64,000 nucleotides of DNA from Opitutales bacterium (GCA_022565335.1 JAIUMY010000001.1:7817-71816); one strand, 5' to 3'; counted from the stretch's first letter, positions 50,901 to 61,873 are shown. Made by a program: numbers and translations. Notes: generated by a model from the letters alone, not told the origin.

Positions 50901-51947
50901 CGCTTTCCACATAACCTGCAAAGGTTGGTTCCCCTCACTCTGACCTATAGTAAACGAAACCTGCGTGAGGAGGCTTTTGAGGATTTATTAAACAAGCTCG
51001 CCGAGGTTGATTGGCATAGAGACCCCAATGGCAATTGGATTGATATGGTTCGGTGGGAACGGTCCCGCCTCCTCAACCGCCGCGGGGAAATGGAAAGCCC
51101 CTATGTCGCCAAAATGGTCTTTCCCCATCAAACCGGAACAGTCCCCGATTTTACCTATGAGATATCCGGTGTTTATCCCGAAGACCGGTCTTTTGCTTCC
51201 CCATACTGGAGAACCAACTGGACCTACGGAGAGCATTTCACCGCGCTGGATGCCAAGTACAATCTTCATGTAACTTTTCACCGTTCTACTGGGGATGACC
51301 CTCATCATACGATGGTCATCCTTTCCGCTCCAGCCTCGGGATTTGTTCCTATTCCGACCCCGGAAAGAAACTCTTATATCAAACTCAGTCTGGTCGATCC
51401 GGAATCGGGAGAAACCGTTTTCACCCAAAACAAAATGGGCTCGTTGCACCCTTCCGGTCACTCCCTCTGGCGAATCGAGCCAGGTTCCTGGCGCGAGAAT
51501 GAAGAACTCCAATTGAAAATGCCTCCCTTTGGTCCGAGCGAAGGGACCATCAGCCCCTTTTCCGACCAGCCATCCATGCGGGTTGAGGGATACCATGACG
51601 ACCGCGGCCAAATCGCCCATTCGCCGATGATTTCGGTGGAACAACAAGATGAGTTATTCGTTTGGAGCCTGATCCGCCGCGACCGTATGGCGTCCAGCAG
51701 CACACTGAACATCGTATTCTATGACGAAGAGCTACAAGAGATCGGCCGCCGGGATATAACCAACATCGCGAACTTACCCACCCCGGGGCGGTGGACCGTG
51801 GTTCATCAGAGCTATCACCGTCAAGAAGCGAACCGGAGGGGCCAATATCCCGCCAACACGGCCTATGCACAAATCATCGTTTCCGGCCGGGGAGCTTTGT
51901 CCATCGCCTACCTCGACCTCATCGCCATTGAGAAAGAGGAGGAATAA
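44949..51947 (+). CDS. Giant secreted TPR-repeat protein (2332 aa)
   Basis: Signal peptide MMRKRTLLPLLLTLLFLPSLFA. Many 34-aa A/L/Y/W-patterned repeats. ATGA overlap with the upstream gene. Confidence 0.8.
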   Translation: MMRKRTLLPLLLTLLFLPSLFADEALPGDIQRYEQMLLQAPGPSPAFDRVYQHYQNQRHLDGLQQRWEEALADEPEQAAAYHFLLGLLAEQRSDLSQARQHLTQATETDPQLSTAFQRLAEIHLRTGALNEAVTAYENALRGPLSANEEQQILLELGRIHLRLADPDSAKGTWGALLRRFPDDPYVFEEIGEAFLYAGQFEDSRGILRAMAANPSTDPFRRLQALLRIGETYDYQGHWKEALEYFESVLNQSQPDSWLQRQALEKIEELYTRGGQTEQFVQFLENRLDNQPDLFTARRLQQVLIRLGETEQAHQWLRQMASWAPDNDDLQAELAALLIEEKQWNEAEEILLRLTRRHPENWRYWETLGSFYLKRNQDGDRQKATETWSQLVDPDTTAVHPFIRLGELYDRYGWEEEALQSFQQGLARDPRDFSLREKTGLYLMDLGREEEAWKVLRGENDELPRARDYYRLAQLKERFEKPDGALRALRRGLQLEPHNYPLLQRKWQFLSNDDQWAEALTLIPRMEKALPSERHASSLDRLHRLTLVRTGQLDEYFEALTATYGKSVGTNTPMPESDLRFFLFLIPWQGESEEKAKIIDQALVWYPEAPFVWEGQYQIARAEEDTETMEHASRELITHRPGRTAEWLRRWAQDLLTLKEKERALKVAAEWQQYQPTNPDVYLLRADILYRKGRNEEGNHALRQAIPFSNEPELLHQRLTEAYGEQGRWRDAAELMQETFAALPSRSQRLTMLDRMVEIHPLTGKTDSFMDLFFQRFPELTQGPDFHLYRSEIYYAKGKPEAARRELERASAMDPEDSATIEAFIRQALEEEDLDEAIRQTRNLLSQASSPETELQLAKRLLQNREVDEALTILQRHGRLLAGDQEQWPVFLELIHDTQDRLQLAHILYDHRNWLEDSWSARIALAELFLREVSLEKAEALFWQVYDTEPRDRFSEEEEAFPSGNVTSRGHPASREFYSTTRAFTEARRQITNTQRIFRSTRARQRPPQARSNLLETNLPPRAEARSQALGYLIGIALIQGEEEAFINKLNEHHRERDIPLHHVVWDKLRIGLFDEAFFETLDKIIADPDLANPDWVALFHPYLRREYHSLEDLDLIKAFTKRQVALNGTTRDSLYEHYFRDTYDEWLMAAYHRNLSVSEEEINQVLEEAEEILGKDSRHYQLFDRARFIAAVYHQNYDTVREKIPAVLEQASRNRGSLAEHLLYDFIRLSTADQHPLTPEQLEVIPYFLPHLRAIRAHDNRNYRLTEDYFTIPVLHSNAVSPPLLHPLYLLFQRHQHEGTEQDLIEAFTWKPESWPSDSSRRTHQILRFFLYLWSGDEQTIPYGEKLLAESRDLGVSLNLALLYHEKGNTERALDLLHEFDSTNFGLYPTVQWKTITLAQGEERFQPIARAALERLEENWSRHRRRLSVSLEDLYHKAGLGEEWDQRQQAKAEAEAEAKAEAEAKAQKKKEAARPETSAPEVTSSSPSPPEPLPRPTREPIDLSTTPVWESAHSRLRETSDPIERVRLARELLQTAPLGFRDETVTANNRLHYGSNTHIRRLLVAKIYALRVLHQENEREAFLQELVDQHQARPTSLPTIARIIEAIEFSDPPLPKDTLPSGKGLAHYYRAALKVQPNHSYFEESFGLYAHANEEWGQLADFYADRVKRNPYLVLQNEDPKIFEAYAKAGRVSEVVDQFLENELFQLRLDRLGFERIFFLRNNFREIREHLESHGLYDELFPLEKFQIQELNTGRATFSYVWLLRHGQNFGLTESDHLEILRTFFAPTQIVDPPIYHTTTRSTTFLQSFSEWMLPRKLWKQHSFLVDPFLLLREAEPAALKDFWAEWQNDYGTQKGLSAEVLLQGALLSHQLEDPAFPELFKRLARLVQYTYGEENRKYFHQTYFLPLLKTPGIRKASPEQRHEFALALRPNSSRRGAFQWMTGEQPFRALPAWQRLEKNHLLGQEEEAYNLSRHLLEQLMSNGRFPHNLQRLVPLTLTYSKRNLREEAFEDLLNKLAEVDWHRDPNGNWIDMVRWERSRLLNRRGEMESPYVAKMVFPHQTGTVPDFTYEISGVYPEDRSFASPYWRTNWTYGEHFTALDAKYNLHVTFHRSTGDDPHHTMVILSAPASGFVPIPTPERNSYIKLSLVDPESGETVFTQNKMGSLHPSGHSLWRIEPGSWRENEELQLKMPPFGPSEGTISPFSDQPSMRVEGYHDDRGQIAHSPMISVEQQDELFVWSLIRRDRMASSSTLNIVFYDEELQEIGRRDITNIANLPTPGRWTVVHQSYHRQEANRRGQYPANTAYAQIIVSGRGALSIAYLDLIAIEKEEE

Positions 51948-52051
51948 TCGCCGTTATTCAAAATGATGAAAAGACGAATCCTCGCCGACCACACATCTCC
52001 TTTCCGGCTCGACCTTATCGCTTTGGGTGCCATAAAGTAGGCTTTTCTGGA

Positions 52052-54595
52052 ATGCACGAAAAGGAAGCCACAGCTCGGATCAAAATCAACCGCCTCCTCG
52101 AAGAAGCGGGCTGGCGCTTTTTCGCTGAAGGCGGACAAATGGCCAATATTCAACTCGAACCTGCCATTCCCATCCAATCCACCGACCTGGAAAATCTCGG
52201 CGAGGATTTTGAGAAAACGAAAAAAGGGTTCGTTGATTTTCTCCTCCTCGACTCCAAAGGCTTCCCCCTTCTCGTCCTCGAAGCCAAGGCTGAAGGCAAA
52301 AACCCACTGGTGGGCAAGGAACAGGCCCGAAAATATGCCCGCTCCCAAAACTGCCGGTTTGTCATCCTCTCCAACGGCAATCTGCACTACTTTTGGGATC
52401 TCGAACGGGGCAACCCCTACCTGATCACCACATTTCCTTCACCGGTTTCCGTCGAGGGCTACCGGCAAACCGTTGCCCCCGACCCCAAACGCCTCGCCGC
52501 CGAACCAGTTAAGGACGACTATATTGTTTTGACCCAAAGACCCGGCTATGAGAGCGAGGCCGCCTGGAAGAACGAAACCGAGCGCCCCGACTTTATCCGC
52601 GAAAACAAGCTCTGCTTTCTTCGCCCCTACCAACTCAAAGCCCTCCACCGCCTTCAGTCCACCGTCGGCGCTAGCAAGGACCGCTTCCTCTTCGAAATGG
52701 CCACCGGCACTGGCAAGACTCTCACCGCTGCCGCCGTCATCAAACTCTTTCTCCGCACCGGCAACGCCCGCCGGGTGCTTTTTCTCGTGGACCGCCTCGA
52801 GCTGGAGGACCAGGCCAAAAAAGCCTTCTCCGGCCTTCTCTCCGCTGATTTCCAAACCGTCATCTATAAGGAAAACCGCGACGACTGGCGGAGGGCCGAG
52901 ATTGTCGTCACCACCGTCCAGTCACTTCTCTTCAATAATAAATTCCAGCGGCTCTTTTCTCCAACCGATTTCGACCTCGTGATTTCCGATGAAGCCCATC
53001 GCTCCATCGGCGGTAATGCCCGTGCGGTCTTTGAATACTTTATCGGCTACAAACTGGGGCTCACCGCTACCCCCAGGGACTACCTGCGCAAGTTTGACCC
53101 GGACCAAACCACGACCAAAGACCCGCGCGAGACCGAACGTCGCCTTCTCCTCGACACCTACCGCACCTTTGGATGCGAGAGTGGCCAACCAACTTTCCGC
53201 TACTCCCTCCTCGATGGGGTCAAAGACGGTTACCTCATCAACCCCACCGTCGTGGATGCCCGCTCTGAGATCAGCACCCAACTCCTTTCCGAAAGCGGCT
53301 TTGTCGTTACCGTCACCGACGACACCGGAGAGGACAAAGAAGAGGCCTATCGCCAACGCGAATTCGAAAAACGCTTTTTCTCCGATGCCACCAATCAGGT
53401 TTTCTGCAAAGCCTTTCTCGAAAACGCCCTCCGCGATCCGGTCAGCGGCGAAATCGGCAAGTCCATCATCTTCGCCGTCAGCCAAAACCATGCTGCCAAA
53501 CTCGCCCAAGTGCTCAACGAGATGGCCCACCGCATGTTTCCCGGCAAATACCAGTCCGACTTCGCCGTGCAGGTCACATCCTCCATTCCCGATGCCCAGC
53601 AGTTCACCATTAACTTCGCCAACAACAACCTCCTCGGCTCCGGCAACTTCATTCCCGCCTACAAAACGAGCAAGGCCCGCGTCTGCGTCACCGTCGGCAT
53701 GATGACCACCGGTTACGATTGCACCGACATCCTCAACCTCGGCCTCTTCCGTCCCATCTTCTCGCCCACCGATTTCATCCAGATCAAGGGCCGCGGAACC
53801 CGCAAACATAACTTCCTCGAACACCTCTTCGAAGATTCCCTCCGGGACGTTATCACGGAACCAACCAAGACCGCCTTCAAACTCTTCGATTTCTTCGCCA
53901 ACTGCGAATACTTCGAGGAAGAATTCAACTACGACGAAGTGCTCAAGCTCCCCCCACCCCGGAAGAAAGGGGGCAAGGGCGGTGTCGATGATGGCCCCAC
54001 CGCCCCCGACGGACTCTACGAGCACCTTGGTGACGACCTCATCGCCACCGTCAAAGAGGAAGCCATCGGCGAAGACGGGATGAAAATCGACCGCATGTTC
54101 TTCGAGAAATTCGAAGAAACCGTGCGCGAGGACCCCGAAATCGTCAGCGCCGTCGAAGCCGGCCAGTGGGACCGCGTCATCGACTACGTCAACCGCGAGG
54201 TCTTCGACAAACCCGAGGAATACTACAACCTCGAGAAACTCCGCAAAGCCGCCTCCGTGGACCGCCGGGTGACCCTGCGCGAGATTCTGGAAAAAGTCTT
54301 CGGACTCATTCCCCGCTTCAAAATGAAGGACGAGTTACTCGAAGAGGAATTCGCCAAATTCGTCACCGACCACACCCCTGACGAGCCGACCACCATCCCT
54401 GCCATCAAACACTTTTTCAAAGCCTACCTTACCAGTGGACGCCTCCGCGACATCATTGACCAGCGCCACTACACCGACCTCGCCACCAACCCCGCCTTCT
54501 CCACCCGCGACTTCAAAGCCGTCCCGCCCAAATTCCGCACCCTCGTCCCCGAATACATCAAGGACTACGTCAGCCTCAACCAATTCGCAGCGTAG
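52052..54595 (+). CDS. hsdR: Type I restriction enzyme R subunit (COG4096/EcoEI-like)
   Basis: N-terminal nuclease core VDFLLLD..LVLEAK. Helicase motif I EMATGTGKT and motif II VISDEAHRS, plus later SF2 motifs. Confidence 0.9.
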   Translation: MHEKEATARIKINRLLEEAGWRFFAEGGQMANIQLEPAIPIQSTDLENLGEDFEKTKKGFVDFLLLDSKGFPLLVLEAKAEGKNPLVGKEQARKYARSQNCRFVILSNGNLHYFWDLERGNPYLITTFPSPVSVEGYRQTVAPDPKRLAAEPVKDDYIVLTQRPGYESEAAWKNETERPDFIRENKLCFLRPYQLKALHRLQSTVGASKDRFLFEMATGTGKTLTAAAVIKLFLRTGNARRVLFLVDRLELEDQAKKAFSGLLSADFQTVIYKENRDDWRRAEIVVTTVQSLLFNNKFQRLFSPTDFDLVISDEAHRSIGGNARAVFEYFIGYKLGLTATPRDYLRKFDPDQTTTKDPRETERRLLLDTYRTFGCESGQPTFRYSLLDGVKDGYLINPTVVDARSEISTQLLSESGFVVTVTDDTGEDKEEAYRQREFEKRFFSDATNQVFCKAFLENALRDPVSGEIGKSIIFAVSQNHAAKLAQVLNEMAHRMFPGKYQSDFAVQVTSSIPDAQQFTINFANNNLLGSGNFIPAYKTSKARVCVTVGMMTTGYDCTDILNLGLFRPIFSPTDFIQIKGRGTRKHNFLEHLFEDSLRDVITEPTKTAFKLFDFFANCEYFEEEFNYDEVLKLPPPRKKGGKGGVDDGPTAPDGLYEHLGDDLIATVKEEAIGEDGMKIDRMFFEKFEETVREDPEIVSAVEAGQWDRVIDYVNREVFDKPEEYYNLEKLRKAASVDRRVTLREILEKVFGLIPRFKMKDELLEEEFAKFVTDHTPDEPTTIPAIKHFFKAYLTSGRLRDIIDQRHYTDLATNPAFSTRDFKAVPPKFRTLVPEYIKDYVSLNQFAA

Positions 54596-54600
54596 GAGAA

Positions 54601-55031
54601 ATTATGAAGGATGAATTATGAGTTATGAAGTGGTAGATGAAATACCGTGGATGGTTGAGGAGGGACAGCAGGATCTTCGAGGGCGAACGAAGGACTTTGC
54701 GCTGCGGGTGATACGGCTGTTTGGGGCACTTCCAAAGTCCACGGAAGCCCAGATTATCGGCAAGCAGGTTCTGCGGTCCGGAACTTCCGTTGGTGCCAAC
54801 TACCGCGAAGCTTGGCGTGCCCGGTCCAAAGCGGAGTTTCTTGCCAAATTAGGCGACTGCCTGAAGGAACTCGACGAAACAGCCTACTGGCTAGAACTCC
54901 TTGTTGATGCAGAAATCGTTCCTGTGGCAAAACTCAATGCCCTCCAGGATGAGACGGACCAACTCCTAGCCATCTTCACCACTATCGCCAAACACACCAA
55001 ACAAAACCCTTCATAATTCATCCCTCATAAT
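54601..55031. repeat. 21-nt inverted repeat pair enclosing the four-helix-bundle gene
   Basis: attatgaaggatgaattatga (54601-54621) is the reverse complement of tcataattcatccctcataat (55011-55031), 20/21 matching. Confidence 0.85.
54618..55016 (+). CDS. Four-helix-bundle protein (23S rRNA intervening-sequence protein family)
   Basis: KDFALRVIRL..QVLRSGTSVGANYREA..SKAEFLAKLGDCLKELDETAYWLELL, the family pattern as recalled. Confidence 0.85.
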   Translation: MSYEVVDEIPWMVEEGQQDLRGRTKDFALRVIRLFGALPKSTEAQIIGKQVLRSGTSVGANYREAWRARSKAEFLAKLGDCLKELDETAYWLELLVDAEIVPVAKLNALQDETDQLLAIFTTIAKHTKQNPS

Positions 55032-55044
55032 TCATAATTCTTCC

Positions 55045-57603
55045 ATGCTCGACTCTTCCACCAAACGCCGCATCGACACCGCCCGCGACATCCTTGTCGG
55101 CAAAGTTCCCGACCCTAAATCGCAGGTCGAGCAGATCACCATTGCCCTGATCTACAAGTTCATGGACGACATGGACGCCGAGGCCGAGGAATTCGGCGGC
55201 GAGCGCAAGTTCTTCGCGGGCGAATACGCCCGCTACGGCTGGGCCAAGCTCCTGCGCGGCGGGCTGGGCGGCCACGAGGCCCTCAACCTCTACACCGAGG
55301 CCATCGCCAAGATGCCGGAAAACCCCGGCATCCCGCCGCTCTTTCGCGACATCTTCAAGAACGCTTTCCTCCCCTACCGCGACCCCGAAACCCTCCGCGC
55401 CTTCCTCAAGATCATCGACGAGTTCGAATACGACCACTCCGAACGCCTCGGCGACGCCTTCGAATACCTCCTCTCCGTCCTCGGTTCCCAGGGCGACGCC
55501 GGACAATTCCGCACCCCCCGCCACATCATCGACTTCATCGTCGAACTCCTCGACCCGAAAAAACACGAAACCATTCTCGACCCCGCCTGCGGCACCGCCG
55601 GTTTCCTGATTTCGGCTTACAAGCACATCCTCAAAAACAACAGCACCCCCGAGGCGGTTGAAGACAAACCCGTCGATGAAAACGACAAAGCCGCCCTGGA
55701 CTCCTCCCGCATCCCGCCCGCCCGCGGTGACCTCCTCACCCCCGACGAACGCGCCAACCTCGCCAAAAACATTCGGGGCTACGACATCTCCCCCGACATG
55801 GTGCGGCTCTCTCTCGTCAACCTTTACCTCCACGGCTTCAACGACCCGCACATCCACGAATACGACTCCCTCACCAGCCAGGAACGCTGGAACGAGTACT
55901 CCGACGTCATCCTCGCCAACCCGCCCTTCATGTCGCCGAAGGGCGGCATCAAGCCCCACAACCGCTTCCCCGTCCAGAGCAAGCGCAGCGAGGTACTCTT
56001 CGTCGATTACATCGCCGAGCACCTCACCCCCGGCGGACGAGCCGGGATCATCGTCCCCGAGGGTATCATCTTCCAGGGCCAGACCGCCTACAAAAACCTC
56101 CGCAAGATGCTCGTCGAGGACTCCCTCGTCGCCGTCATCTCCCTCCCCGCCGGCGTCTTCCAGCCCTATTCGGGGGTCAAAACCAGCATCCTCATCCTCG
56201 ACAAAACCCTCGCCAAACAAGCCGACACCATAGCCTTCTTCAAAGTCGAAAACGACGGCTTCGGCCTCGGCGCCCAACGGCGGCCGATTGAGAAGAACGA
56301 CCTGCCGGATGCCTTGGAGGCAATGAAGAAGTATCAACAGAAGGTTGAAGGTGGACGGATGAAGGATGAAGTGAATCCCCTCAACCCTCAACCTTCATCC
56401 CTCATCCTTGTGCCGAAATCAAAGATTTCGGCAAACGGCGAATACAACCTCAGCGGCGAGCGGTATCGGGAGGTGGTGGCGGCAAGCCATTCGTTTCCGA
56501 TAGTCCCTCTCGGCGAGAAAAGCCTGTTTCGAGTCGAAAGCGGCGGCACCCCAAAGTCTGGAGTTGAAGAGTATTGGAACGACGGCATTCCTTGGGCTAC
56601 ACTTGTCGATCTTCCGGCTACCGACTTTATTTCGGAAATAAGGGCAACCACACGCACGATCTCGGAGAAAGGGCTCCGGGCGTCCTCGGCGAAAATGATT
56701 CCGGCAAATTCGGTGATAGTCTCGACTCGTGCAACTATCGGCCGCATCGCCATCAATCGTGTTCCAATTGCAACGAACCAAGGCTTCAAGAACGTCGTGA
56801 TCGAAAACCCAACTCGGGCTATGCCTGAGTATGTGGCCTTTGCGCTCACCAAACTTGTCCCAACAATGAAAGATTGGGGAACCGGCGGTACCTTCGCAGA
56901 GATCTCAAAGACCAAGTTCTGCGAACTCCAAATCCCCCTTCCCCCGCTGGAGGTGCAGAAGGAAATCGTGGCCGAGATCGAAGGCTACCGGAAAGTCATC
57001 GACGGCGCCCGCGCCGTCCTCGACAACTACCGCCCCCACATCCCCATCCACCCCGACTGGCCAATGGTGGAGTTGGGGGAGGTGTGTGAACTCTACCAAC
57101 CAAAGACGATTGGACAGAATGACTTTGTCCCAGATGGACCGTACTTGGTTTTTGGCGCTAATGGTGTCATTGGTCGTTACAATCAATATAACCACGAGCA
57201 AGCTGAAGTCATTATTACGTGCCGAGGGGCGACATGTGGCACCGTGAACAAGTCCGAACCGAAATCATGGATAACAGGGAACGCAATGGTTGCAAAACCT
57301 AAGAATGCGAAATTATCCAAGGATTTCTTGTTCTCCTTACTGAAAGGGTCCGACTTGAGTCCGACGATTTCTGGGTCGGCGCAACCCCAGATTACACGAC
57401 AGGGTCTCGCACCTTTCAAAATTCCTCTCCCGCCCCTCGAAACCCAACGTGCTATTGTCGCCGAAATCGAAGCCGAACAAACCCTCGTCAACGCCAACCG
57501 CGACCTCATCGCCCGCATGGAAAAGAAAATCCAAGCCACCCTTGCACGGGTATGGGGAGAAGCAGAGAAGGATGATGGTGGAGGGATGAGGGATGAGGGA
57601 TGA
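55045..57603 (+). CDS. hsdM: Type I R-M methyltransferase fused in-frame to a two-TRD specificity subunit (HsdM-HsdS)
   Basis: N-terminal half has RDILVGKVPDPKSQVEQIT, DPACGTAGFL (motif I) and ILANPPFMSP (motif IV). C-terminal half has two TRDs, each followed by a conserved helix (PLPPLEVQKEIVAEIEGY, PLPPLETQRAIVAEIEAEQ). Confidence 0.85.
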   Translation: MLDSSTKRRIDTARDILVGKVPDPKSQVEQITIALIYKFMDDMDAEAEEFGGERKFFAGEYARYGWAKLLRGGLGGHEALNLYTEAIAKMPENPGIPPLFRDIFKNAFLPYRDPETLRAFLKIIDEFEYDHSERLGDAFEYLLSVLGSQGDAGQFRTPRHIIDFIVELLDPKKHETILDPACGTAGFLISAYKHILKNNSTPEAVEDKPVDENDKAALDSSRIPPARGDLLTPDERANLAKNIRGYDISPDMVRLSLVNLYLHGFNDPHIHEYDSLTSQERWNEYSDVILANPPFMSPKGGIKPHNRFPVQSKRSEVLFVDYIAEHLTPGGRAGIIVPEGIIFQGQTAYKNLRKMLVEDSLVAVISLPAGVFQPYSGVKTSILILDKTLAKQADTIAFFKVENDGFGLGAQRRPIEKNDLPDALEAMKKYQQKVEGGRMKDEVNPLNPQPSSLILVPKSKISANGEYNLSGERYREVVAASHSFPIVPLGEKSLFRVESGGTPKSGVEEYWNDGIPWATLVDLPATDFISEIRATTRTISEKGLRASSAKMIPANSVIVSTRATIGRIAINRVPIATNQGFKNVVIENPTRAMPEYVAFALTKLVPTMKDWGTGGTFAEISKTKFCELQIPLPPLEVQKEIVAEIEGYRKVIDGARAVLDNYRPHIPIHPDWPMVELGEVCELYQPKTIGQNDFVPDGPYLVFGANGVIGRYNQYNHEQAEVIITCRGATCGTVNKSEPKSWITGNAMVAKPKNAKLSKDFLFSLLKGSDLSPTISGSAQPQITRQGLAPFKIPLPPLETQRAIVAEIEAEQTLVNANRDLIARMEKKIQATLARVWGEAEKDDGGGMRDEG
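56357..56407. repeat. Cargo-less inverted repeat (hairpin) at the M/S domain junction
   Basis: ggatgaaggatgaag (56357-56371) pairs with cttcatccctcatcc (56393-56407), 14/15, with a 21-nt loop. Confidence 0.85.
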
Positions 57604-58069
57604 AGGTGCAGTGGCGGAGCCTAGCGGGAAACCCGAACGGATGGTCGCGGAAGCGGCGGCGGGGTATAAAAAAAGTCCATATAATCGAGGAAACTGACTT
57701 TAGCTTGACCTTTGAAAACTTAAATATGAACATTAGATCACCGTGGCGAAGCTGAAAAATACCAAGGATTTTATTGTCCTGCTACTGCACGCGCTAGATA
57801 AGGCGGAGCAGCCGAACCACCTCATTTCCGGGCAAACGCGGTTGATCGCGCCTATGTTTGTTTGCCCCGAAAACAGATCATTCCAGAGATGCAATCAGAA
57901 GCCGAAGATACCGGCATCGGTCTCTTGCGTTCCAAGACAACGAGGCATGGCCGTTTTCCATCGCCGTTCCAGCAAAGGAATCCCCAGTGCTCTCCCCAAA
58001 GTTACTGAACGGCCATTGAGCAGTATCTTTGATATCTATGGCGGCAACAACAAATAGAAAGCTATACCG

Positions 58070-61000
58070 ATGGATCACACCCACATTGTTCAATCAAGCG
58101 ACTTGGACCGTTATGCACCAACGAGGGAAAGCCAAGCGGTAATCCCAGAGTTGGTTTATTGGCTCGTAAAGCAGTCCTGTGCCGATATCACAGCCTGTCG
58201 GATTCCTTATGGCGATGCAGTGAACCAACCAGGTTGGGATGGCATGGTTGAATCCGAAGCAGGATTTTTCGAGTTTGTTCCAAAGGGTAAATCGTTTTGG
58301 GAAATAGGAACAGGAGCCGATGCACAGAGCAAAGCAACCGAAGATTTTAGAAAGCGAACCCAACAAATGGATGACGAGGAACGTGCGAATTCTTCATTCG
58401 TCTTCGTAACCCCCCGCAGGTGGGATGAGCCCGAGCTGACAGCGTGGATAGCACGAAGAAAAGACAAGGGATGGAAGCAGATTCGGGTCATTGATGGCGT
58501 CAAACTCGCTGATTGGCTACGAGAACATCCGGCCGTCGGAAAATGGATGGCCAAGAAACTTAATTTAACGACGAACCTCGGTGGGATAGCGACTGCATCC
58601 GAACACTGGGACGATATAGTTTCGGAGAGCGCTGGTGACGATCCGCCCTTGCCACCTAAACTATTTACTATCGGAAGGACAGGAGCATCTGATGCATTAC
58701 AGGCTCTATTCGAGGGAAAAAAACAGGTTCTTATGTTCTTCGCCCAAAGCCCACAGGATGTCGCTGATTTTATCTCGGCCTTTTTGGCTGGATTGGAAAC
58801 TGAGACGTTTCGAGATTACAACAATAGGTGCCTTTACATAAACGATGAACAGGCGTGGCGTAGCATTGTTGAAACCCGCCTTCCCCACGTTTTGGTTGCT
58901 GACTCACGTCTCGGACTGGAGACCGAGGAAGGTGCTACGCTTCAGACAATTGCTCGGCGAAGAGGACATGCTGTGGTTGTCCCACTCTGTGGATATTGGG
59001 CAGGTGATAGCCCGGAAACCCTAAAACTACCTAGTCCTTCGCAATCGCAGATTGAGTCAGCCCTCAAAGAATCAGGATACACCGAAATACGTGCCAGAGA
59101 ACTTGGGAGGATAGGCGGTGATCGAATTTCAGCACTTCTCCGCTACCTGCGAGGCTATGGAAATCTGCCTCCATACGCATCATGGAACAATGCGACTCTA
59201 ATCGCGCAAGCAGGGCTAGTTGGTAAGTGGGATGGATCCAGCCCCGCAGATCGATCCGCCTTGGAGAAGTTGCTGGGAAAAAGTTATGGGGAGTGGATCG
59301 AGATTCTGAGGCCTGACACGCTTCGCTCGGACTCTCCCCTGATTCAACGTGACGAAAAGTGGCGATTTGTTGCGCGCGGCGAGGCGTGGAAGTTTCTTGG
59401 AAATCGGATTACGGATGATGACTTAGATAGGTTCCGGATGACAGCGGTTGCTGTTTTGAGTGAGATAGACCCTAAATTTGACCTTCCAAAGGAAGAACGA
59501 TATGCCGCGAGTATTCATGGGAAAGTGCTCAATCATTCCCACCTGATTAGAAAGGGAATTGCTGAGACGCTAGCTTTGATGGGAAGTTTTCCGACGGCAT
59601 TGACTTCGTGCAGCGACGGGAAGGCGACAGCCATCGCTGTTCTGGTTGTGCACAAGCTGTTGAACAAGGCGAATTGGGATCGCTGGGCCAGTCTGGATTC
59701 AATTATGCCGCTTTTGGCCGAAGCCGCGCCCGACGAGTTTCTCGATGCTGTGGAATCTGTCCTTATCGACCTATCCGACACGCCTTTCCACAAAGTTTAT
59801 GCAGAAGAGGGAGGCGGTGGATTGGGAAGCTGGAACTATATGAGCGGACTTCTTTGGGCGCTGGAGACCTTGGCGTGGAGTCCCAAATATCTCTCCCGCG
59901 TGTCAGTCATCCTAGCTGATATTGCGTCGTTCGATCCCGGGGGAAACTGGACAAATCGCCCTTCAAATTCTTTGGCAGACATTTTCTTGCCGTGGCATTT
60001 CCAAACCACTGCGCGATTTGAAAAGCGTAAAGCGGCTGTTGAAGCAGTGATAAAAGAGCATCCGTCGGTGGGCTGGAGGCTTCTCTTGGCATTGTTGCCG
60101 CACAACCATGGTTTCACCAGTGGGTGTCATCGCCCTGTCTGGCGGGACTTCATCCCTCGAGACTGGAAAGATGGTGTGCTAAGAAGCGAATATTGGGAGC
60201 AGATCACCGCCTACACCGACCTCGCTGTAGCACTAGCTAAGAGTGACTCAGGAAAGCTTTGCGAGCTTATCAAGAGGCTGTCCGATTTGCCAAGGGCGGC
60301 GCACGAAAGTCTCCTGGAGCACCTTGCTTCGGACGAGATCGTATCGTTGCCCGAGGAAGATCGCATGCCTCTGTGGGAGAATCTTGATGGGCTGGTTAGA
60401 AATCACCGGAAGTTCGCAGATGCTGATTGGGCAATGCCCGAAGAGGTGGTCTGCAAAATTGCCGAAACCGCTAAATTACTCGCACCAGTTTCACCCGCAT
60501 TTAAATTCCATCACCTATTCAGTGGCAGGGATTTCGACTTGTATGACGAAAAGGGAGATTACGATGAGCAACGAAAGCGGCTCGACGAAGCCCGCCAAAC
60601 CGCCATTTCTGAGATTTTAGATGCTGATGGAATTGATGCAGCTTTGCAGTTTGCCTCCAAAGTCGACGCTCCTTACGAAGTCGGTCGAGCGCTTGGATTG
60701 ATCTCTACAGATGAGATAGAGGGGTTAATATTACCAAGTATTTTAGATTCTGAAGACGACATATTAGTTCGAGTTGTCGCCGGATTCATTTGGAGGCGTT
60801 TCTGGGAACTCAAAACGGACTGGGTGGATAGAGTTCTTGAACGGGGCTGGTCGGCGGAGCATCAAGCCAAATTCCTGACGTTACTCCCTTTTGAAGAAGC
60901 GATATGGGAGCGGGTGTCAACGAAGCTGGGAGCCTCTCACGAGTCGCTGTATTGGAAAAATGCAAGGGTTAATCCTTACGGGCGAGACCGAGATCTATCG

Positions 61001-61873
61001 TTTGCAATTGAAAAGTTACTCGAATACGGACGCGAAGGGGCAGCAGTTATGTGCGTTGCCCACACAGCAGATGATGAATCACGGTTCGATGAATCGCTAG
61101 CCACACGTGCTCTTCTGGCGGTCCTTGAAAATAAGAATGGAATTAAAGAGTTGGACAACTATCAGACCGTCGAATTGATCAAGCATCTTCAGGAGTCCAA
61201 AACAGCTGATAAAGATGCCCTTTTCCAAATTGAATGGAATTTTCTCCCTTGGCTGGATAGCTTCTCATCTGGATCGCCAGTTACTTTGGAAAAGCGGCTG
61301 GCGTCGGATCCAGCTTTTTTCGCGGAAGCTATTGGTCTCGTGTTCCGCTCTAAGAACGCAAGTGAGGATAGTGAAAACGAGCAAATTGAAAACAAAAAGC
61401 ATCTTGCCATGAACGCTTACAAACTCCTGACGAATTGGAAGCATTGCCCCGGCATACAAGATGATGGATCGTTTTGCGCCGATGCATTTGATGCATGGCT
61501 AAGTGAGACTCGCAGGTTAACCGAGGAGTCGGGCCATGTAGAGGTTGCGCAAATCCAGATTGGTCATGTATTGACATGTGCCCCACCAGATCCCGACGGG
61601 CTCTGGATCCACTCTGCGGTAGCTGATGCATTGAACTTTCGCGACACAGGAGAGATGCGATCTGGATTCACAACTCAACTCTTCAATGATCGTGGAGTTC
61701 ACGGATTCACTCACGGTGAAGAGGAACGACAACTTGCAAAGCAGTATCGGGAGAAAGCCGATGCTCTTGATGCAAGAGCCTACACACGTTTCGCAGCTGC
61801 AATGCGTGAGTTCGCTGAACAATACGAACGAGATGCTGAACGCCAAGCTAACCGTGATCCTTTCGAAGATTAA
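58070..61873 (+). CDS. Large hypothetical protein (1267 aa), no NTPase motif, mostly helical
   Basis: Uninterrupted ORF in an AT-richer segment. I found no GxxxxGK[ST]. The N-terminal ~170 aa (PGWDGMVES..KGKSFWEIGT..FVFVTPRRW) is distinct from the long helical remainder. Confidence 0.7.
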   Translation: MDHTHIVQSSDLDRYAPTRESQAVIPELVYWLVKQSCADITACRIPYGDAVNQPGWDGMVESEAGFFEFVPKGKSFWEIGTGADAQSKATEDFRKRTQQMDDEERANSSFVFVTPRRWDEPELTAWIARRKDKGWKQIRVIDGVKLADWLREHPAVGKWMAKKLNLTTNLGGIATASEHWDDIVSESAGDDPPLPPKLFTIGRTGASDALQALFEGKKQVLMFFAQSPQDVADFISAFLAGLETETFRDYNNRCLYINDEQAWRSIVETRLPHVLVADSRLGLETEEGATLQTIARRRGHAVVVPLCGYWAGDSPETLKLPSPSQSQIESALKESGYTEIRARELGRIGGDRISALLRYLRGYGNLPPYASWNNATLIAQAGLVGKWDGSSPADRSALEKLLGKSYGEWIEILRPDTLRSDSPLIQRDEKWRFVARGEAWKFLGNRITDDDLDRFRMTAVAVLSEIDPKFDLPKEERYAASIHGKVLNHSHLIRKGIAETLALMGSFPTALTSCSDGKATAIAVLVVHKLLNKANWDRWASLDSIMPLLAEAAPDEFLDAVESVLIDLSDTPFHKVYAEEGGGGLGSWNYMSGLLWALETLAWSPKYLSRVSVILADIASFDPGGNWTNRPSNSLADIFLPWHFQTTARFEKRKAAVEAVIKEHPSVGWRLLLALLPHNHGFTSGCHRPVWRDFIPRDWKDGVLRSEYWEQITAYTDLAVALAKSDSGKLCELIKRLSDLPRAAHESLLEHLASDEIVSLPEEDRMPLWENLDGLVRNHRKFADADWAMPEEVVCKIAETAKLLAPVSPAFKFHHLFSGRDFDLYDEKGDYDEQRKRLDEARQTAISEILDADGIDAALQFASKVDAPYEVGRALGLISTDEIEGLILPSILDSEDDILVRVVAGFIWRRFWELKTDWVDRVLERGWSAEHQAKFLTLLPFEEAIWERVSTKLGASHESLYWKNARVNPYGRDRDLSFAIEKLLEYGREGAAVMCVAHTADDESRFDESLATRALLAVLENKNGIKELDNYQTVELIKHLQESKTADKDALFQIEWNFLPWLDSFSSGSPVTLEKRLASDPAFFAEAIGLVFRSKNASEDSENEQIENKKHLAMNAYKLLTNWKHCPGIQDDGSFCADAFDAWLSETRRLTEESGHVEVAQIQIGHVLTCAPPDPDGLWIHSAVADALNFRDTGEMRSGFTTQLFNDRGVHGFTHGEEERQLAKQYREKADALDARAYTRFAAAMREFAEQYERDAERQANRDPFED

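What the first reader, a model, noticed from the sequence alone, without database searches (positions are those of the whole stretch)
54601..57606. 12-nt motif ATGA(A/G)GGATGAA marks every gene or domain junction of the hsd operon, including a solo hairpin inside the M-S fusion
**Occurrences of the motif:**
- 54604-54615 (+), at the hsdR/4HB junction.
- 55017-55028 (-), at the 4HB/hsdM junction.
- 56359-56370 (+) and 56394-56405 (-), at the M/S domain junction.
- 57593-57604 (+), at the stop of the fusion, preceded by a third GGATGAG unit.

**What the pairs form:**
- The first pair is part of a 21-nt inverted repeat enclosing the four-helix-bundle gene. This geometry mirrors the 23S rRNA intervening sequences where this protein family was first found, with a stem flanking the ORF.
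- The M/S pair is the same inverted repeat with no cargo and is translated as ..GRMKDEVNPLNPQPSSLIL..

**Hypothesis:** this suggests a mobile or RNase III-processed cassette system whose empty site has welded hsdM to hsdS.
Basis: seen in the sequence. Interest (0 to 1): 0.65.

Follow-up and report, generated by a model that had tools for sequence, protein, structure and literature searches.

The report
Repeat-flanked four-helix-bundle gene cassette
The 12-base motif belongs to short tandem 7-base repeats that bracket a small four-helix-bundle gene in a restriction operon, an arrangement that recurs around this gene family across many bacterial phyla; it did not fuse the methylase to the specificity subunit.

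Summary
**Observation.** It holds. ATGARGGATGAA occurs five times in 64 kb, only in the hsd operon (0.03 expected by chance). The copies lie in five arrays of 7-nt tandem repeats with units GGATGAR/TTATGAA.
- Arrays A and B are inverted and enclose a TIGR02436/PF05635 four-helix-bundle (4HB) gene.
- Arrays C and D form a cargo-less hairpin.
- Array E supplies the C-terminal tail and stop codon of the M-S protein.

**Interpretation.** Partly right.
- The M-S fusion is ancestral to a very large, widely distributed family, and most members have no hairpin.
- The C/D hairpin lies inside the HsdM linker, not at the M/S junction.
- The cassette idea generalises: 40 of 83 related 4HB genes have a purine-rich heptamer array upstream and its complement downstream. 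Among 1248 control ORFs only one does, and that one is itself a 4HB gene.
- Finished plasmids from Nostoc, Gloeocapsa, Planktothrix, Chlorohelix and Treponema show the same layout with lineage-specific units.
- Cargo-less hairpins recur, and array copy number varies in multiples of 7.
- Size and geometry match 23S rRNA intervening sequences, which RNase III excises.

**Limits.** RNase III processing and mobility are inferred, not shown. I found no paper linking 4HB genes to flanking heptamer arrays.

The parts
52052..54595 (+). hsdR (type I restriction subunit, EcoAI-like)
   Evidence: Pfam ResIII, HSDR_N and SWI2_SNF2. NCBIfam restrict_EcoAI, E 1.3e-62, below that model's curated cut-off. PADLOC REase_I. 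The last 50 nt (54546-54595) travel with the cassette in L162.
54595..54630 (+). Array A: purine-rich heptamer array GGAGAAA TTATGAA GGATGAA TTATGAG TTATGAA. It fills the space after the hsdR stop codon and contains the 4HB start codon.
   Evidence: TRF period 7, 4.3 copies. Inverted-repeat arm of I1/I6. It carries ATG and TGA in all three frames, giving the mini-ORFs MKDEL*, MNYEL* and MKW*.
54618..55016 (+). Four-helix-bundle protein gene (132 aa), the cargo of the cassette
   Evidence: PF05635, E 2.8e-19. TIGR02436, E 6.5e-27, 93.9 bits against a cut-off of 24. A homologue with 95% amino-acid identity sits in a different genomic context. The N-terminus MSYE and the C-terminus NPS* are translated heptamers.
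55008..55044 (-). Array B: complement array CC TTCATAA TTCATCC CTCATAA TTCATAA TTCTTCC. It contains the 4HB stop codon and ends directly at the hsdM ATG.
   Evidence: TRF period 7, 4.4 copies. 22 nt at 95% complementarity to array A. The predicted RNA fold of 54590-55050 closes with the A/B stem, z = -4.4. It also matches a sigma-70-like TTCATA-17-CATAAT pattern.
55045..57603 (+). hsdM-hsdS fusion gene (852 aa). The fusion is ancestral to the family.
   Evidence: Pfam N6_Mtase 133-477 plus Methylase_S. The 120 best homologues listed all carry both domains, at 53-82% identity, from many phyla.
56340..56371 (+). Array C: purine-rich arm of the cargo-less hairpin (GGTTGAA GGTGGAC GGATGAA GGATGAA), translated in frame as VEGGRMKDE
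   Evidence: TRF period 7, 4.6 copies. Inverted repeats I12 and I25. 84% identical to array E (family D4). A gain or loss of 7 nt here would end M at residue 440-443.
56378..56409 (-). Array D: complement arm of the cargo-less hairpin (CCCTCAA CCCTCAA CCTTCAT CCCTCAT CC), translated as PLNPQPSSLIL
   Evidence: TRF period 7, 3.9 copies. The hairpin folds at -24.1 kcal/mol with z only -1.9. The same position carries heptamer hairpins of another unit type in L014, L032 and L076.
56410..56480 (+). Conserved C-terminal segment of HsdM (VPKSKISANGEYNLSGERYREVV). The real M/S boundary follows it.
   Evidence: Alignment with 120 homologues; consensus LIVPKEKIAANGDYNLSGERYRE.
57567..57612 (+). Array E: lone purine-rich array (GGATGAT GGTGGAG GGATGAG GGATGAG GGATGAA) that encodes the tail DDGGGMRDEG and the TGA stop (57601-57603)
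   Evidence: TRF period 7, 4.9 copies. Perfect 17-nt inverted match to D and 84% direct match to C. No complement arm lies downstream. Homologues have short unrelated tails.

Best explanation
The window carries one copy of a widespread but apparently undescribed element. [quoted passage not shown]

**What is shown**
- The element fills the hsdR-hsdM spacer of a type I operon whose M-S fusion is ancestral.
- Its arrays run from the hsdR stop codon to the hsdM start codon and contain the start and stop codons of the 4HB gene.
- Two more members of the same repeat family sit in the operon: a cargo-less hairpin translated in frame within the variable linker of HsdM, and a lone array that forms the C-terminal tail and stop codon of M-S.
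- The element has the size and geometry of a 23S rRNA intervening sequence.
- Such arrays expand and contract in 7-nt steps, and cargo-less hairpins are a recurrent form.

**What is inferred**
- On the polycistronic transcript the two arrays pair into a stem of 22 bp or more that encloses the 4HB ORF.
- By analogy, that stem is a substrate for RNase III, which would release the 4HB RNA and uncouple the hsdR and hsdM-S segments.
- The cassettes spread among operons mainly by recombination, through conserved flanking coding sequence or through the arrays themselves, rather than by a dedicated transposase.
For: **In the window**
- The motif is non-random and confined to the operon.
- Five period-7 arrays and their inverted pairings are present.
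- The 4HB gene passes curated cut-offs.

**Generality**
- Of 83 related 4HB genes, 60 have a period-7 array upstream, 56 downstream and 47 both. Forty have purine-rich upstream plus pyrimidine-rich downstream.
- Only 1 of 1248 control ORFs shows that last pattern, and it is itself a 4HB gene.
- The commonest units are GGATGAA (99), TTATGAA (53) and GGATGAG (22) out of 655.
- The two arms of one cassette share unit type (similarity 0.58) far more than arms of different cassettes do (0.09).

**Finished replicons**
- The same layout appears with other units: Chlorohelix GGATGAA/TTATGAA, Gloeocapsa ATTTTAG, Planktothrix AATCCCC/AATCGTA, Nostoc punctiforme GGAGGTC and GGGTGTG, Treponema GTGGAAA.
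- In 200 kb of pNPUN01, 8 of 22 period-7 arrays flank the three annotated 4HB genes. At least three further inverted array pairs there carry no 4HB gene.

**Cargo versus no cargo**
- Consecutive purine-arm-to-pyrimidine-arm pairs have gaps of 301-700 nt (41 cases) or 60 nt or less (13 cases). Only 2 pairs fall at 61-300 nt.

**Insertion state**
- About 35 of 77 related operons have a 0-31 nt hsdR-hsdM spacer.
- At least 15 carry a 4HB, 4HB+suffix or GxxExxY gene there, mostly flanked by inverted 7- or 9-nt arrays.

**Array dynamics**
- Three near-identical contigs differ by 28 and 161 nt within the downstream array.

**RNA stem**
- The A/B stem closes both the minimum-energy and centroid folds; z = -4.4, with 0 of 100 shuffles folding as well.

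**Precedents**
- The Coxiella intervening sequence is 428-444 nt, has a 28-bp terminal stem and an S23p ORF, and is cut by RNase III within the stem (PMC4990558).
- The H. influenzae (ATCTTTC)n heptamer hairpin is cut by RNase III, and RNase III is needed for its copy-number change (PMC12721329).

**Recombination**
- The cassette plus 50 nt of the hsdR 3' end is 94.3% identical in L162, while the hsdR remnant further upstream is far more diverged.
Against: **No direct evidence**
- There is no RNA-end or expression data.

**No sign of selection for pairing**
- Mismatches between arms show no excess of G.U-compatible changes on the sense strand (24 against 18), and there are many T.C and A.A mismatches.
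- Arms are only weakly more complementary than the same units in shuffled order (mean z 0.51, p 0.02). For the window itself there is no excess.
- The solo hairpin is weak (z -1.9).

**Arrays also occur without 4HB genes**
- Some genomes carry heptamer arrays at many intergenic sites with no 4HB gene.
- Hairpins occur in M-S genes with no 4HB gene nearby (L014, L022, L036).

**No classic transposition signature**
- No target-site duplication and no recombinase were identified.
- L162 proved to be a decayed hsd locus beside tRNA genes, not a clean transposition.

**No function assigned**
- Nothing is known about what the 4HB protein does. It has no PADLOC match.
Confidence: 0.6

Rival explanations
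1. DNA-level mobile element resembling MITEs or REPINs. The heptamer arrays would be multi-site terminal repeats recognised by a protein acting in trans, possibly the 4HB protein itself by analogy with RAYT genes flanked by inverted REPs. Solo hairpins would be cargo-less copies or landing pads.
For: - Gap sizes between array pairs are bimodal, cargo-bearing versus empty.
- Cassettes sit at different junctions and in unrelated operons, for example SSF|4HB|CN_hydrolase, DrmD|4HB|PglX and csx2..4HB|cas1.
- Arrays within one operon share the same unit type: GGATGAA in the window, AATTACG in L076 and L032, and 9-mers in L015, L069 and L064.
- In pNPUN01 a solo hairpin of the CAGGAGT type lies 600 nt from a 4HB gene flanked by the same unit.
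- Arms resemble each other in unit type rather than in exact complementarity, as expected for arrays of binding sites.
Against: - No target-site duplication is visible: arrays abut the stop and start codons and replace the whole spacer.
- No transposase or recombinase lies in or next to the cassettes.
- The 4HB protein has no nuclease motif known to me.
- 4HB genes were co-oriented with a neighbouring gene in every finished locus inspected.
- The one near-identical copy in another context (L162) carries 50 nt of hsdR and is a decayed hsd locus.
- No relatives were found in IMG/VR viral contigs.
Confidence: 0.22
2. The arrays are expression signals rather than structural or mobile features. Purine-rich GGATGAA/TTATGAA arrays would act as reiterated Shine-Dalgarno-plus-ATG-plus-TGA pads. 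These would stop and restart translation in any frame. TTCATAA arrays would supply an outward promoter, so a gene can sit between operon genes without polar effects.
For: - Array A has ATG and TGA in all three frames, with AGGA 6 nt upstream of each following ATG.
- 4HB start and stop codons lie inside the arrays in many loci.
- Arrays fill the spacer exactly from stop codon to start codon.
- The pattern TTCATA-17-CATAAT faces outward at both ends of the cassette.
- In L100 and L134 purine-rich arrays precede many genes.
- MacGregor proposed translational regulation for TAACTGA heptamer repeats near start codons (PMC4679880).
Against: - Many unit types (AATTACG, ATTTTAG, GGGTGTG, GTGGAAA) have no ATG, no stop codon and no SD-like or promoter-like content, yet show the same inverted layout.
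- This model does not explain why the downstream array is the reverse complement of the upstream one.
- The promoter match is 9 of 12 positions, and the number of promoter-like sites (3) is close to that in shuffles (1.7).
Confidence: 0.1
3. Phase variation. Slippage by 7 nt in arrays C or D, which lie inside the M-S reading frame, would switch the specificity part and hence the whole restriction system on and off.
For: - Related arrays change copy number in multiples of 7 between near-identical contigs.
- A gain or loss of 7 nt in C ends M at residue 440-443. A gain or loss of 7 nt in D ends it at 483-509.
- Heptamer repeats drive phase variation of H. influenzae HMW1A (PMC12721329).
Against: - C and D each have only two perfect units, so slippage should be rare.
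- Most 4HB-flanking arrays are intergenic.
- Heptamer hairpins at the same linker position in L014, L032 and L076 are all in frame.
- No frameshifted variant of this gene was found; the exact protein is not on record elsewhere.
Confidence: 0.06
4. One reading: an empty cassette site welded hsdM to hsdS.
For: The hairpin is translated in frame within the fusion protein and shares the 12-mer with the 4HB flanks.
Against: - The fusion exists in all 120 best homologues and in all 80 genomic loci, from many phyla. Most have an ordinary linker of about 49 residues with no hairpin.
- The hairpin is upstream of the conserved HsdM C-terminal segment and within the N6_Mtase envelope.
- The hairpin adds only about 5 residues relative to the common linker.
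Confidence: 0.02

Closest known systems
23S rRNA intervening sequences that carry an S23p/PF05635 ORF (Coxiella burnetii, Leptospira)
   Same: - Same protein family in the loop.
- Same size: 428-444 nt in Coxiella against a 449-nt spacer here.
- Terminal inverted repeats form a stem: 28 bp in Coxiella, 22-36 nt here.
- Regarded as a horizontally spread selfish element (PMC4990558).
   Different: - Located in an mRNA spacer between hsdR and hsdM, not in helix 9, 25 or 45 of 23S rRNA.
- The arms here are tandem heptamer arrays. Whether the arms of intervening sequences are too was not checked.
- RNase III cleavage is shown for intervening sequences but not here.
Cyanobacterial STRR (short tandemly repeated repetitive) heptamer hairpins, for example between hupS and hupL
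   Same: - Tandem 7-bp units that can form a hairpin at gene junctions inside operons, with function unknown (PMC2670836).
- The solo hairpins and flanking arrays found in Nostoc punctiforme pNPUN01 are of this kind.
   Different: - Here the host is an Opitutales-like verrucomicrobium and the units differ.
- I found no publication linking STRR arrays to 4HB genes.
- One hairpin here is translated inside a protein.
H. influenzae hmw1A 5'-UTR heptamer repeat hairpin
   Same: - A transcribed array of heptamers forms the arm of a long RNA hairpin.
- RNase III cleaves it, and RNase III is needed for copy-number change (PMC12721329).
- ATCTTTC is the reverse complement of a rotation of AGATGAA, which falls in the unit family seen here.
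   Different: - That case has a single array paired with a G-rich region in a 5'-UTR, regulating one adhesin.
- It has no enclosed gene and no inverted array pair.
REPIN-RAYT systems (REP doublets and the transposase gene they flank)
   Same: - A dispersed short hairpin repeat together with a gene that is itself bracketed by inverted copies of that repeat (PMC3116915 and my own knowledge of RAYT loci).
   Different: - RAYT is an HUH transposase, whereas the 4HB protein has no known catalytic motif.
- REPs are not tandem arrays.
4HB (23S_rRNA_IVP) genes embedded in cas operons; Avd of diversity-generating retroelements
   Same: - Same family, noted between cmr3 and cmr2 and next to cas4 and cas6 (PMC3936711).
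- Here it appears in type I R-M, DISARM/BREX-like, DUF1156 and cas contexts.
- Avd is a homologous nucleic-acid-binding pentamer (PMC10053308).
   Different: - Those reports do not mention flanking repeats.
- No reverse transcriptase is present here.
TAACTGA intergenic heptamer direct repeats (Beggiatoaceae, Cyanobacteria, Bacteroidetes)
   Same: - Tandem heptamers next to start codons, patchy distribution across phyla, function unknown (PMC4679880).
   Different: - Described as direct repeats, with one inverted case, and with no associated gene family.

Membership tests
TIGR02436 / PF05635 four-helix-bundle (23S rRNA intervening-sequence protein) family | HMM score above the curated cut-off | tested here: met
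   PF05635: 69.8 bits against a cut-off of 33.8. TIGR02436: 93.9 bits against 24.
TIGR02436 / PF05635 four-helix-bundle (23S rRNA intervening-sequence protein) family | Four-helix bundle that assembles into a pentameric ring | not tested
   No structure prediction was run. The property is known for the Xanthomonas homologue (cited in PMC4990558).
23S rRNA intervening sequence (IVS) element | Inserted in helix 9, 25 or 45 of a 23S rRNA gene | tested here: not met
   It lies between the hsdR stop codon and the hsdM start codon. Rfam finds nothing in 54000-58200. None of the 4HB loci held lies next to 23S rRNA sequence; the single 23S motif hit, in L015, is in a locus without a 4HB gene.
23S rRNA intervening sequence (IVS) element | Terminal inverted repeats form a stem of roughly 20-30 bp that encloses the ORF; element about 0.4-0.8 kb | tested here: met
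   22 nt at 95% or 36 nt at 78% complementarity. The stem closes the predicted fold, z -4.4. The spacer is 449 nt.
23S rRNA intervening sequence (IVS) element | Excised from the transcript by RNase III | not testable with these tools
STRR-type heptamer hairpin | Tandem 7-bp units arranged as inverted arrays able to form a hairpin at gene junctions | tested here: met
   The feature is described in PMC2670836.
STRR-type heptamer hairpin | Host is a heterocyst-forming cyanobacterium and units are STRR1-3 (from my own knowledge of Mazel et al. 1990) | tested here: not met
   LeuRS places the window in Opitutales-like Verrucomicrobiota. The units are GGATGAR/TTATGAA.
Type I restriction-modification system with fused M-S subunit | HsdR helicase-nuclease plus an N6-adenine methyltransferase domain and two target-recognition domains in one polypeptide | tested here: met
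   The fusion is shared by the 120 listed homologues and the 80 loci.
MITE / REPIN-like transposable element | Target-site duplication at the ends | tested here: not met
   Occupied and empty hsdR-hsdM junctions were compared: L056 against L012, and the window against L045 and L057. The arrays abut the stop and start codons and no duplicated spacer remains.
MITE / REPIN-like transposable element | A cognate transposase gene bearing the same ends somewhere in the genome | not testable with these tools
No such gene was seen in the loci held.
Phase-variable simple-sequence-repeat locus | Repeat tract inside an ORF, with length variants among close relatives that shift the reading frame | tested here: inconclusive
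   Length variation in 7-nt multiples is seen in an intergenic array of L167-L169. The arrays inside M-S have only 2-3 perfect units, and no variant of this gene is on record.

The most novel reading that the evidence does not exclude
Small genes of the 4HB family, and in parallel the 4HB+suffix and GxxExxY PD-(D/E)xK families with 9-nt arrays, together with their inverted short-tandem-repeat arms, form one previously unrecognised class of element resembling rRNA intervening sequences.
- These elements would colonise gene junctions, above all in defence operons, as well as rRNA genes and permissive protein loops.
- The unexplained heptamer repeats of cyanobacteria (STRR) and other phyla would be their arms and their cargo-less derivatives.
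- The encoded protein would recognise, or help to propagate, its own repeat type.
Probability: 0.3. Interest if true: 0.8.

Novelty: new variant of a known kind. Interest (0 to 1): 0.62.

Why it matters
Three things have been described separately and left unexplained:
- S23p ORFs inside 23S rRNA intervening sequences.
- Small 'four helix bundle' genes wedged between genes of CRISPR and restriction operons.
- Tandem heptamer (STRR-type) repeats and hairpins.

The data here suggest they are aspects of one element: a 4HB gene bracketed by inverted heptamer arrays, plus cargo-less hairpins.

If that holds:
- It gives a testable origin for a widespread repeat class.
- It gives the 4HB/Avd-like family a concrete nucleic-acid partner to test.
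- It flags a possible layer of RNA processing or regulation inside defence operons.

For annotation, such arrays produce spurious peptide extensions and in-frame inserts in otherwise conserved proteins. They also cause assembly breaks.

Tried and rejected
- **Integron attC.** The C/D hairpin contains GTTGAGG/CCTCAAC, close to the GTTRRRY core. But 4HB genes are bracketed by arms on both sides rather than followed by a single attC, and no integrase is present. Dropped.
- **Invertible S segment.** D and E are perfect 17-nt inverted repeats around the S part. No recombinase gene lies nearby, and pairs in the pyrimidine-arm-then-purine-arm order with a gap over 700 nt are common simply as neighbours (16 cases). 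Not pursued.
- **L162 as proof of transposition.** Rejected after tblastn showed a 44-codon hsdR remnant and ARAGORN showed a tRNA cluster beside it. It is a decayed hsd island or a recombinant.
- **Rfam.** No match in 54000-58200 at E up to 1.
- **PADLOC.** No model matches the 4HB protein.
- **Viral contigs.** No relative of this 4HB subfamily.
- **G.U bias test.** No bias on the sense strand.
- **Unit-order permutation test.** Weak or inconclusive.
- **23S rRNA next to 4HB loci.** None found by conserved-motif search.
- **Literature.** Nine searches found no paper linking PF05635/TIGR02436 to flanking repeats. Elhai et al. 2008 and Vioque 1997 are not held.
- **Source genome.** Only a 2.8-kb Logan contig carries the 4HB protein exactly, and the M-S protein is not on record.
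- **Protein phylogeny against unit type.** Only 10 cassettes passed my filter, too few to interpret beyond the within-cassette similarity.

Full report
**1. The observation**

The pattern ATGARGGATGAA occurs five times in the window, at exactly the stated coordinates and nowhere else. Shuffles give 0.03 expected matches.

The copies are fragments of five tandem arrays of period 7 (TRF; the repeat finder):
- A, 54595-54630: GGAGAAA TTATGAA GGATGAA TTATGAG TTATGAA
- B, 55008-55044: the complement type
- C, 56340-56371: GGTTGAA GGTGGAC GGATGAA GGATGAA
- D, 56378-56409: complement type
- E, 57567-57612: GGATGAT GGTGGAG GGATGAG GGATGAG GGATGAA

How the arrays relate to each other:
- A and B are inverted, 22 nt at 95% or 36 nt at 78% complementarity.
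- C and D are inverted, 15 nt at 93%, with arms 21 nt apart.
- D and E share a perfect 17-nt inverted match.
- C and E are 84% identical direct repeats.

No other period-7 array of this type exists in the 64 kb. An independent assembly is identical across A and B.

**2. The genes**

| Coordinates | Gene | Evidence |
|---|---|---|
| 52052-54595 | HsdR, EcoAI-like | |
| 54618-55016 | 132-aa TIGR02436/PF05635 four-helix-bundle (4HB) protein | |
| 55045-57603 | 852-aa protein with N6_Mtase (residues 133-477) and two Methylase_S domains | |

By LeuRS the host is an Opitutales-like verrucomicrobium. The operon follows a BatA/VWA/TPR operon.

**3. The M-S fusion is not a product of the hairpin**

- The 120 best homologues listed are all 817-1033 aa and all carry both domains. 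They share 53-82% identity with the window protein and come from Nitrospira, Xanthomonadales, Brocadiia, Gemmatimonadota, Chloroflexota and others.
- Eighty genomic loci from as many species show the same fusion.
- The hairpin-encoded peptide (residues about 432-455) lies in a variable linker that precedes the conserved HsdM C-terminal segment LIVPKEKIAANGDYNLSGERYRE. The S part begins after that.
- Most members have an ordinary 49-residue linker. The window's linker is 54 residues.

**4. The cassette is general**

A metagenome scan with a 4HB alignment returned 80 loci. Together with the other loci held, 83 4HB genes had both flanks available.

| Feature | 4HB genes (n = 83) | Control ORFs (n = 1248) |
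|---|---|---|
| Period-7 array upstream | 60 | 73 |
| Period-7 array downstream | 56 | 89 |
| Arrays on both sides | 47 | 14 |
| Purine-rich upstream and pyrimidine-rich downstream | 40 | 1 (itself a 4HB gene) |

- The unit consensus is KKMWGAA. GGATGAA (99), TTATGAA (53) and GGATGAG (22) lead among 655 units, so the window's units are the canonical ones.
- The N-termini MNYE/MKYE/MKDE/MSYE and C-termini ..NPS* of these proteins are the translated arrays.
- The arms of one cassette share unit type (0.58) far more than arms of different cassettes (0.09).

This is not a metagenome artefact. Finished plasmids show 4HB genes bracketed by inverted heptamer arrays with lineage-specific units:

| Organism | Flanking genes | Unit |
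|---|---|---|
| Chlorohelix | helicase \| 4HB \| N6-methylase | GGATGAA/TTATGAA |
| Gloeocapsa PCC 7428 | DUF1156 \| 4HB \| Swt1-HEPN | ATTTTAG |
| Planktothrix | DrmD \| 4HB \| PglX | AATCCCC/AATCGTA |
| Pseudanabaena | csx2 .. 4HB \| cas1 | 35-nt super-unit |
| Nostoc punctiforme | next to XisH; second copy after a tyrosine recombinase | GGAGGTC; GGGTGTG |
| Treponema | DMT transporter \| 4HB \| DUF4832 | GTGGAAA |

In the first 200 kb of pNPUN01, 8 of 22 period-7 arrays flank the three annotated 4HB genes. At least three further inverted pairs there have no 4HB gene.

**5. Cargo-less hairpins are a recurrent form**

- Consecutive arrays in the purine-then-pyrimidine order are separated by 301-700 nt (41 cases, the 4HB cargo) or by 60 nt or less (13 cases). 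Only 2 cases fall at 61-300 nt. The opposite order at 60 nt or less occurs twice.
- Inside M-S genes of other phyla, heptamer hairpins occur at the same linker position (L032, L076, L014). They also occur in an N-terminal loop (L022, L036) and just after the stop codon (L015, L076).
- A DNA alignment shows that the window, L014, L076 and L032 carry the hairpin at the same place, while subfamily relatives L028 and L021 lack it.
- Both arms differ in unit type between the window (GGATGAA) and L032/L076 (AATTACG). Where a 4HB or 4HB+suffix cassette in the same operon has arrays of the same period, the unit types agree: 7-mers in the window, L032 and L076, and 9-mers in L015, L069 and L064.

**6. 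The hsdR-hsdM junction is a hot spot**

- About 35 of 77 operons have a 0-31 nt spacer, for example gcagcgTAAaccaggtcATG.
- At least 15 operons carry one of these genes there, mostly flanked by inverted 7- or 9-nt arrays that run from stop codon to start codon:
  - a 4HB gene (window, L056);
  - a 4HB+suffix gene (TIGR04258; L050, L022, L027, L036, L049, L032, L069, L039, L015);
  - a GxxExxY gene (TIGR04256; L041, L023, L051, L065).
- No target-site duplication is visible.
- A different type I family, with separate M and S, also has hsdR|4HB|hsdM.

**7. Array dynamics and movement**

- Three near-identical contigs (SSF|4HB|CN_hydrolase) differ by 28 and 161 nt within the downstream array, always in multiples of 7.
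- A 4HB gene with 95% amino-acid identity to the window's lies beside tRNA-Arg, Phe and Tyr among housekeeping genes.
- The DNA shared with that locus is window 54546-55039, at 94.3% identity. It comprises the last 50 nt of hsdR, array A, the 4HB gene and array B.
- Further upstream that locus keeps only a much more diverged hsdR remnant. I read this as a recombination breakpoint in a decaying hsd island, not as transposition.
- The 4HB ORF remains intact there: 24 nucleotide differences and about 7 amino-acid differences.
- No relative occurs in IMG/VR viral contigs.

**8. Mechanism**

- As RNA, 54590-55050 folds with the A/B stem closing the structure: z -4.4, and 0 of 100 shuffles fold as well.
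- This matches the Coxiella intervening sequence, which is 428-444 nt with a 28-bp terminal stem and an S23p ORF in the loop. [quoted passage not shown]
- A transcribed heptamer array in the H. influenzae hmw 5'-UTR forms an RNase III-cleaved hairpin, and RNase III is needed for changes in its copy number (PMC12721329).
- I therefore favour transcript-level pairing and RNase III processing. This is inference.
- Two tests for selection on pairing gave little support:
  - There is no G.U excess on the sense strand (24 against 18).
  - Arms are only weakly more complementary than the same units in shuffled order (mean z 0.51, p 0.02).
- The solo hairpin is weak (z -1.9).

Rival readings are scored separately: array-binding mobile element, expression pads, and phase variation. 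A gain or loss of 7 nt in array C would truncate M at residue 440-443, giving the tail GGRMKDEG*, the counterpart of the natural tail GGGMRDEG* made by array E.

**9. What is known**

- 4HB genes inside cas operons have been noted (PMC3936711).
- Their homology to Avd is known (PMC10053308).
- They occur in rRNA insertions of CPR bacteria (bioRxiv 10.1101/2024.02.27.582315).
- STRR hairpins at operon junctions are known, with function unknown (PMC2670836).
- TAACTGA heptamer repeats have been described (PMC4679880).
- None of the nine literature searches found a link between 4HB genes and flanking heptamer arrays. The library is incomplete, so I claim only that I could not find one.

**10. Verdict**

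It is partly wrong: the fusion is ancestral and the hairpin is not at the M/S junction. The window's element is a typical member of a class whose defining architecture appears to be undescribed.

Noticed in passing
window 56923-57089: The central conserved region of the HsdS part is 86-94% identical in DNA to M-S loci from many phyla, while the proteins as a whole are only about 53-76% identical. This looks like a recombination hot spot for swapping target-recognition domains.
   Followed up: partly
L036 3973-4655; L047 6856-7239: An unrelated gene (187 aa in L036) is inserted at the 3' end of M-S. A second copy of the last 22-34 codons of M-S lies downstream of the insert.
   Followed up: partly
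L041, L023, L051, L065, L050, L022, L049, L032, L069, L039, L015 (hsdR-hsdM spacers): Two other small-gene families sit at the same junction: GxxExxY (TIGR04256) and 4HB+suffix (TIGR04258), the latter sometimes with a Top1-type zinc ribbon. They are mostly flanked by inverted tandem arrays of 9 nt rather than 7.
   Followed up: partly
window 55010-55038 (+) and 54629-54601 (-): Arrays of TTCATAA units automatically produce TTCATA-17-CATAAT, a 9-of-12 match to a sigma-70 promoter. It faces outward at both ends of the cassette.
   Followed up: no
L076 4077-4315: There are 34 tandem copies of GAATTAC in an hsdR-hsdM spacer, with no 4HB gene between the arrays. Only a 63-aa ORF is present.
   Followed up: no
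L162 10442-10666: Next to the 4HB cassette lies a 74-aa ORF matching only the 4helix_suffix domain (TIGR04258). It is flanked by inverted ATGGAC-type 9-nt arrays and followed by tRNA-Arg, tRNA-Phe and tRNA-Tyr.
   Followed up: partly
window 51500-58500: GC skew is mosaic. hsdR, the HsdM core and the conserved S segments are strongly C-rich on the coding strand. The 4HB gene, 56285-56930 and 57060-57420 are not. This suggests modules of different origin.
   Followed up: no
window 58070-61873 and 44949-51947: The 1267-aa ORF just downstream of the operon has no Pfam or NCBIfam match and only a weak PADLOC PD-Lambda-4_A hit. The upstream 2332-aa ORF is a TPR protein that contains an (AAGCCG)n tract at 49300-49350.
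   Followed up: no
L100, L115, L134: Some metagenomic contigs carry purine-rich heptamer arrays of several unit types (GTAAGAA, GTTGAGA, GCGGAAA, TCAGAGG) at many intergenic sites, not only next to 4HB genes.
   Followed up: partly
M-S homologues P0001, P0014, P0026, P0027, P0097; L025: The same HsdM linker holds other translated palindromic inserts in other lineages, such as EPSPxGRGxGEG. It appears to be a general permissive site for hairpin repeats.
   Followed up: no
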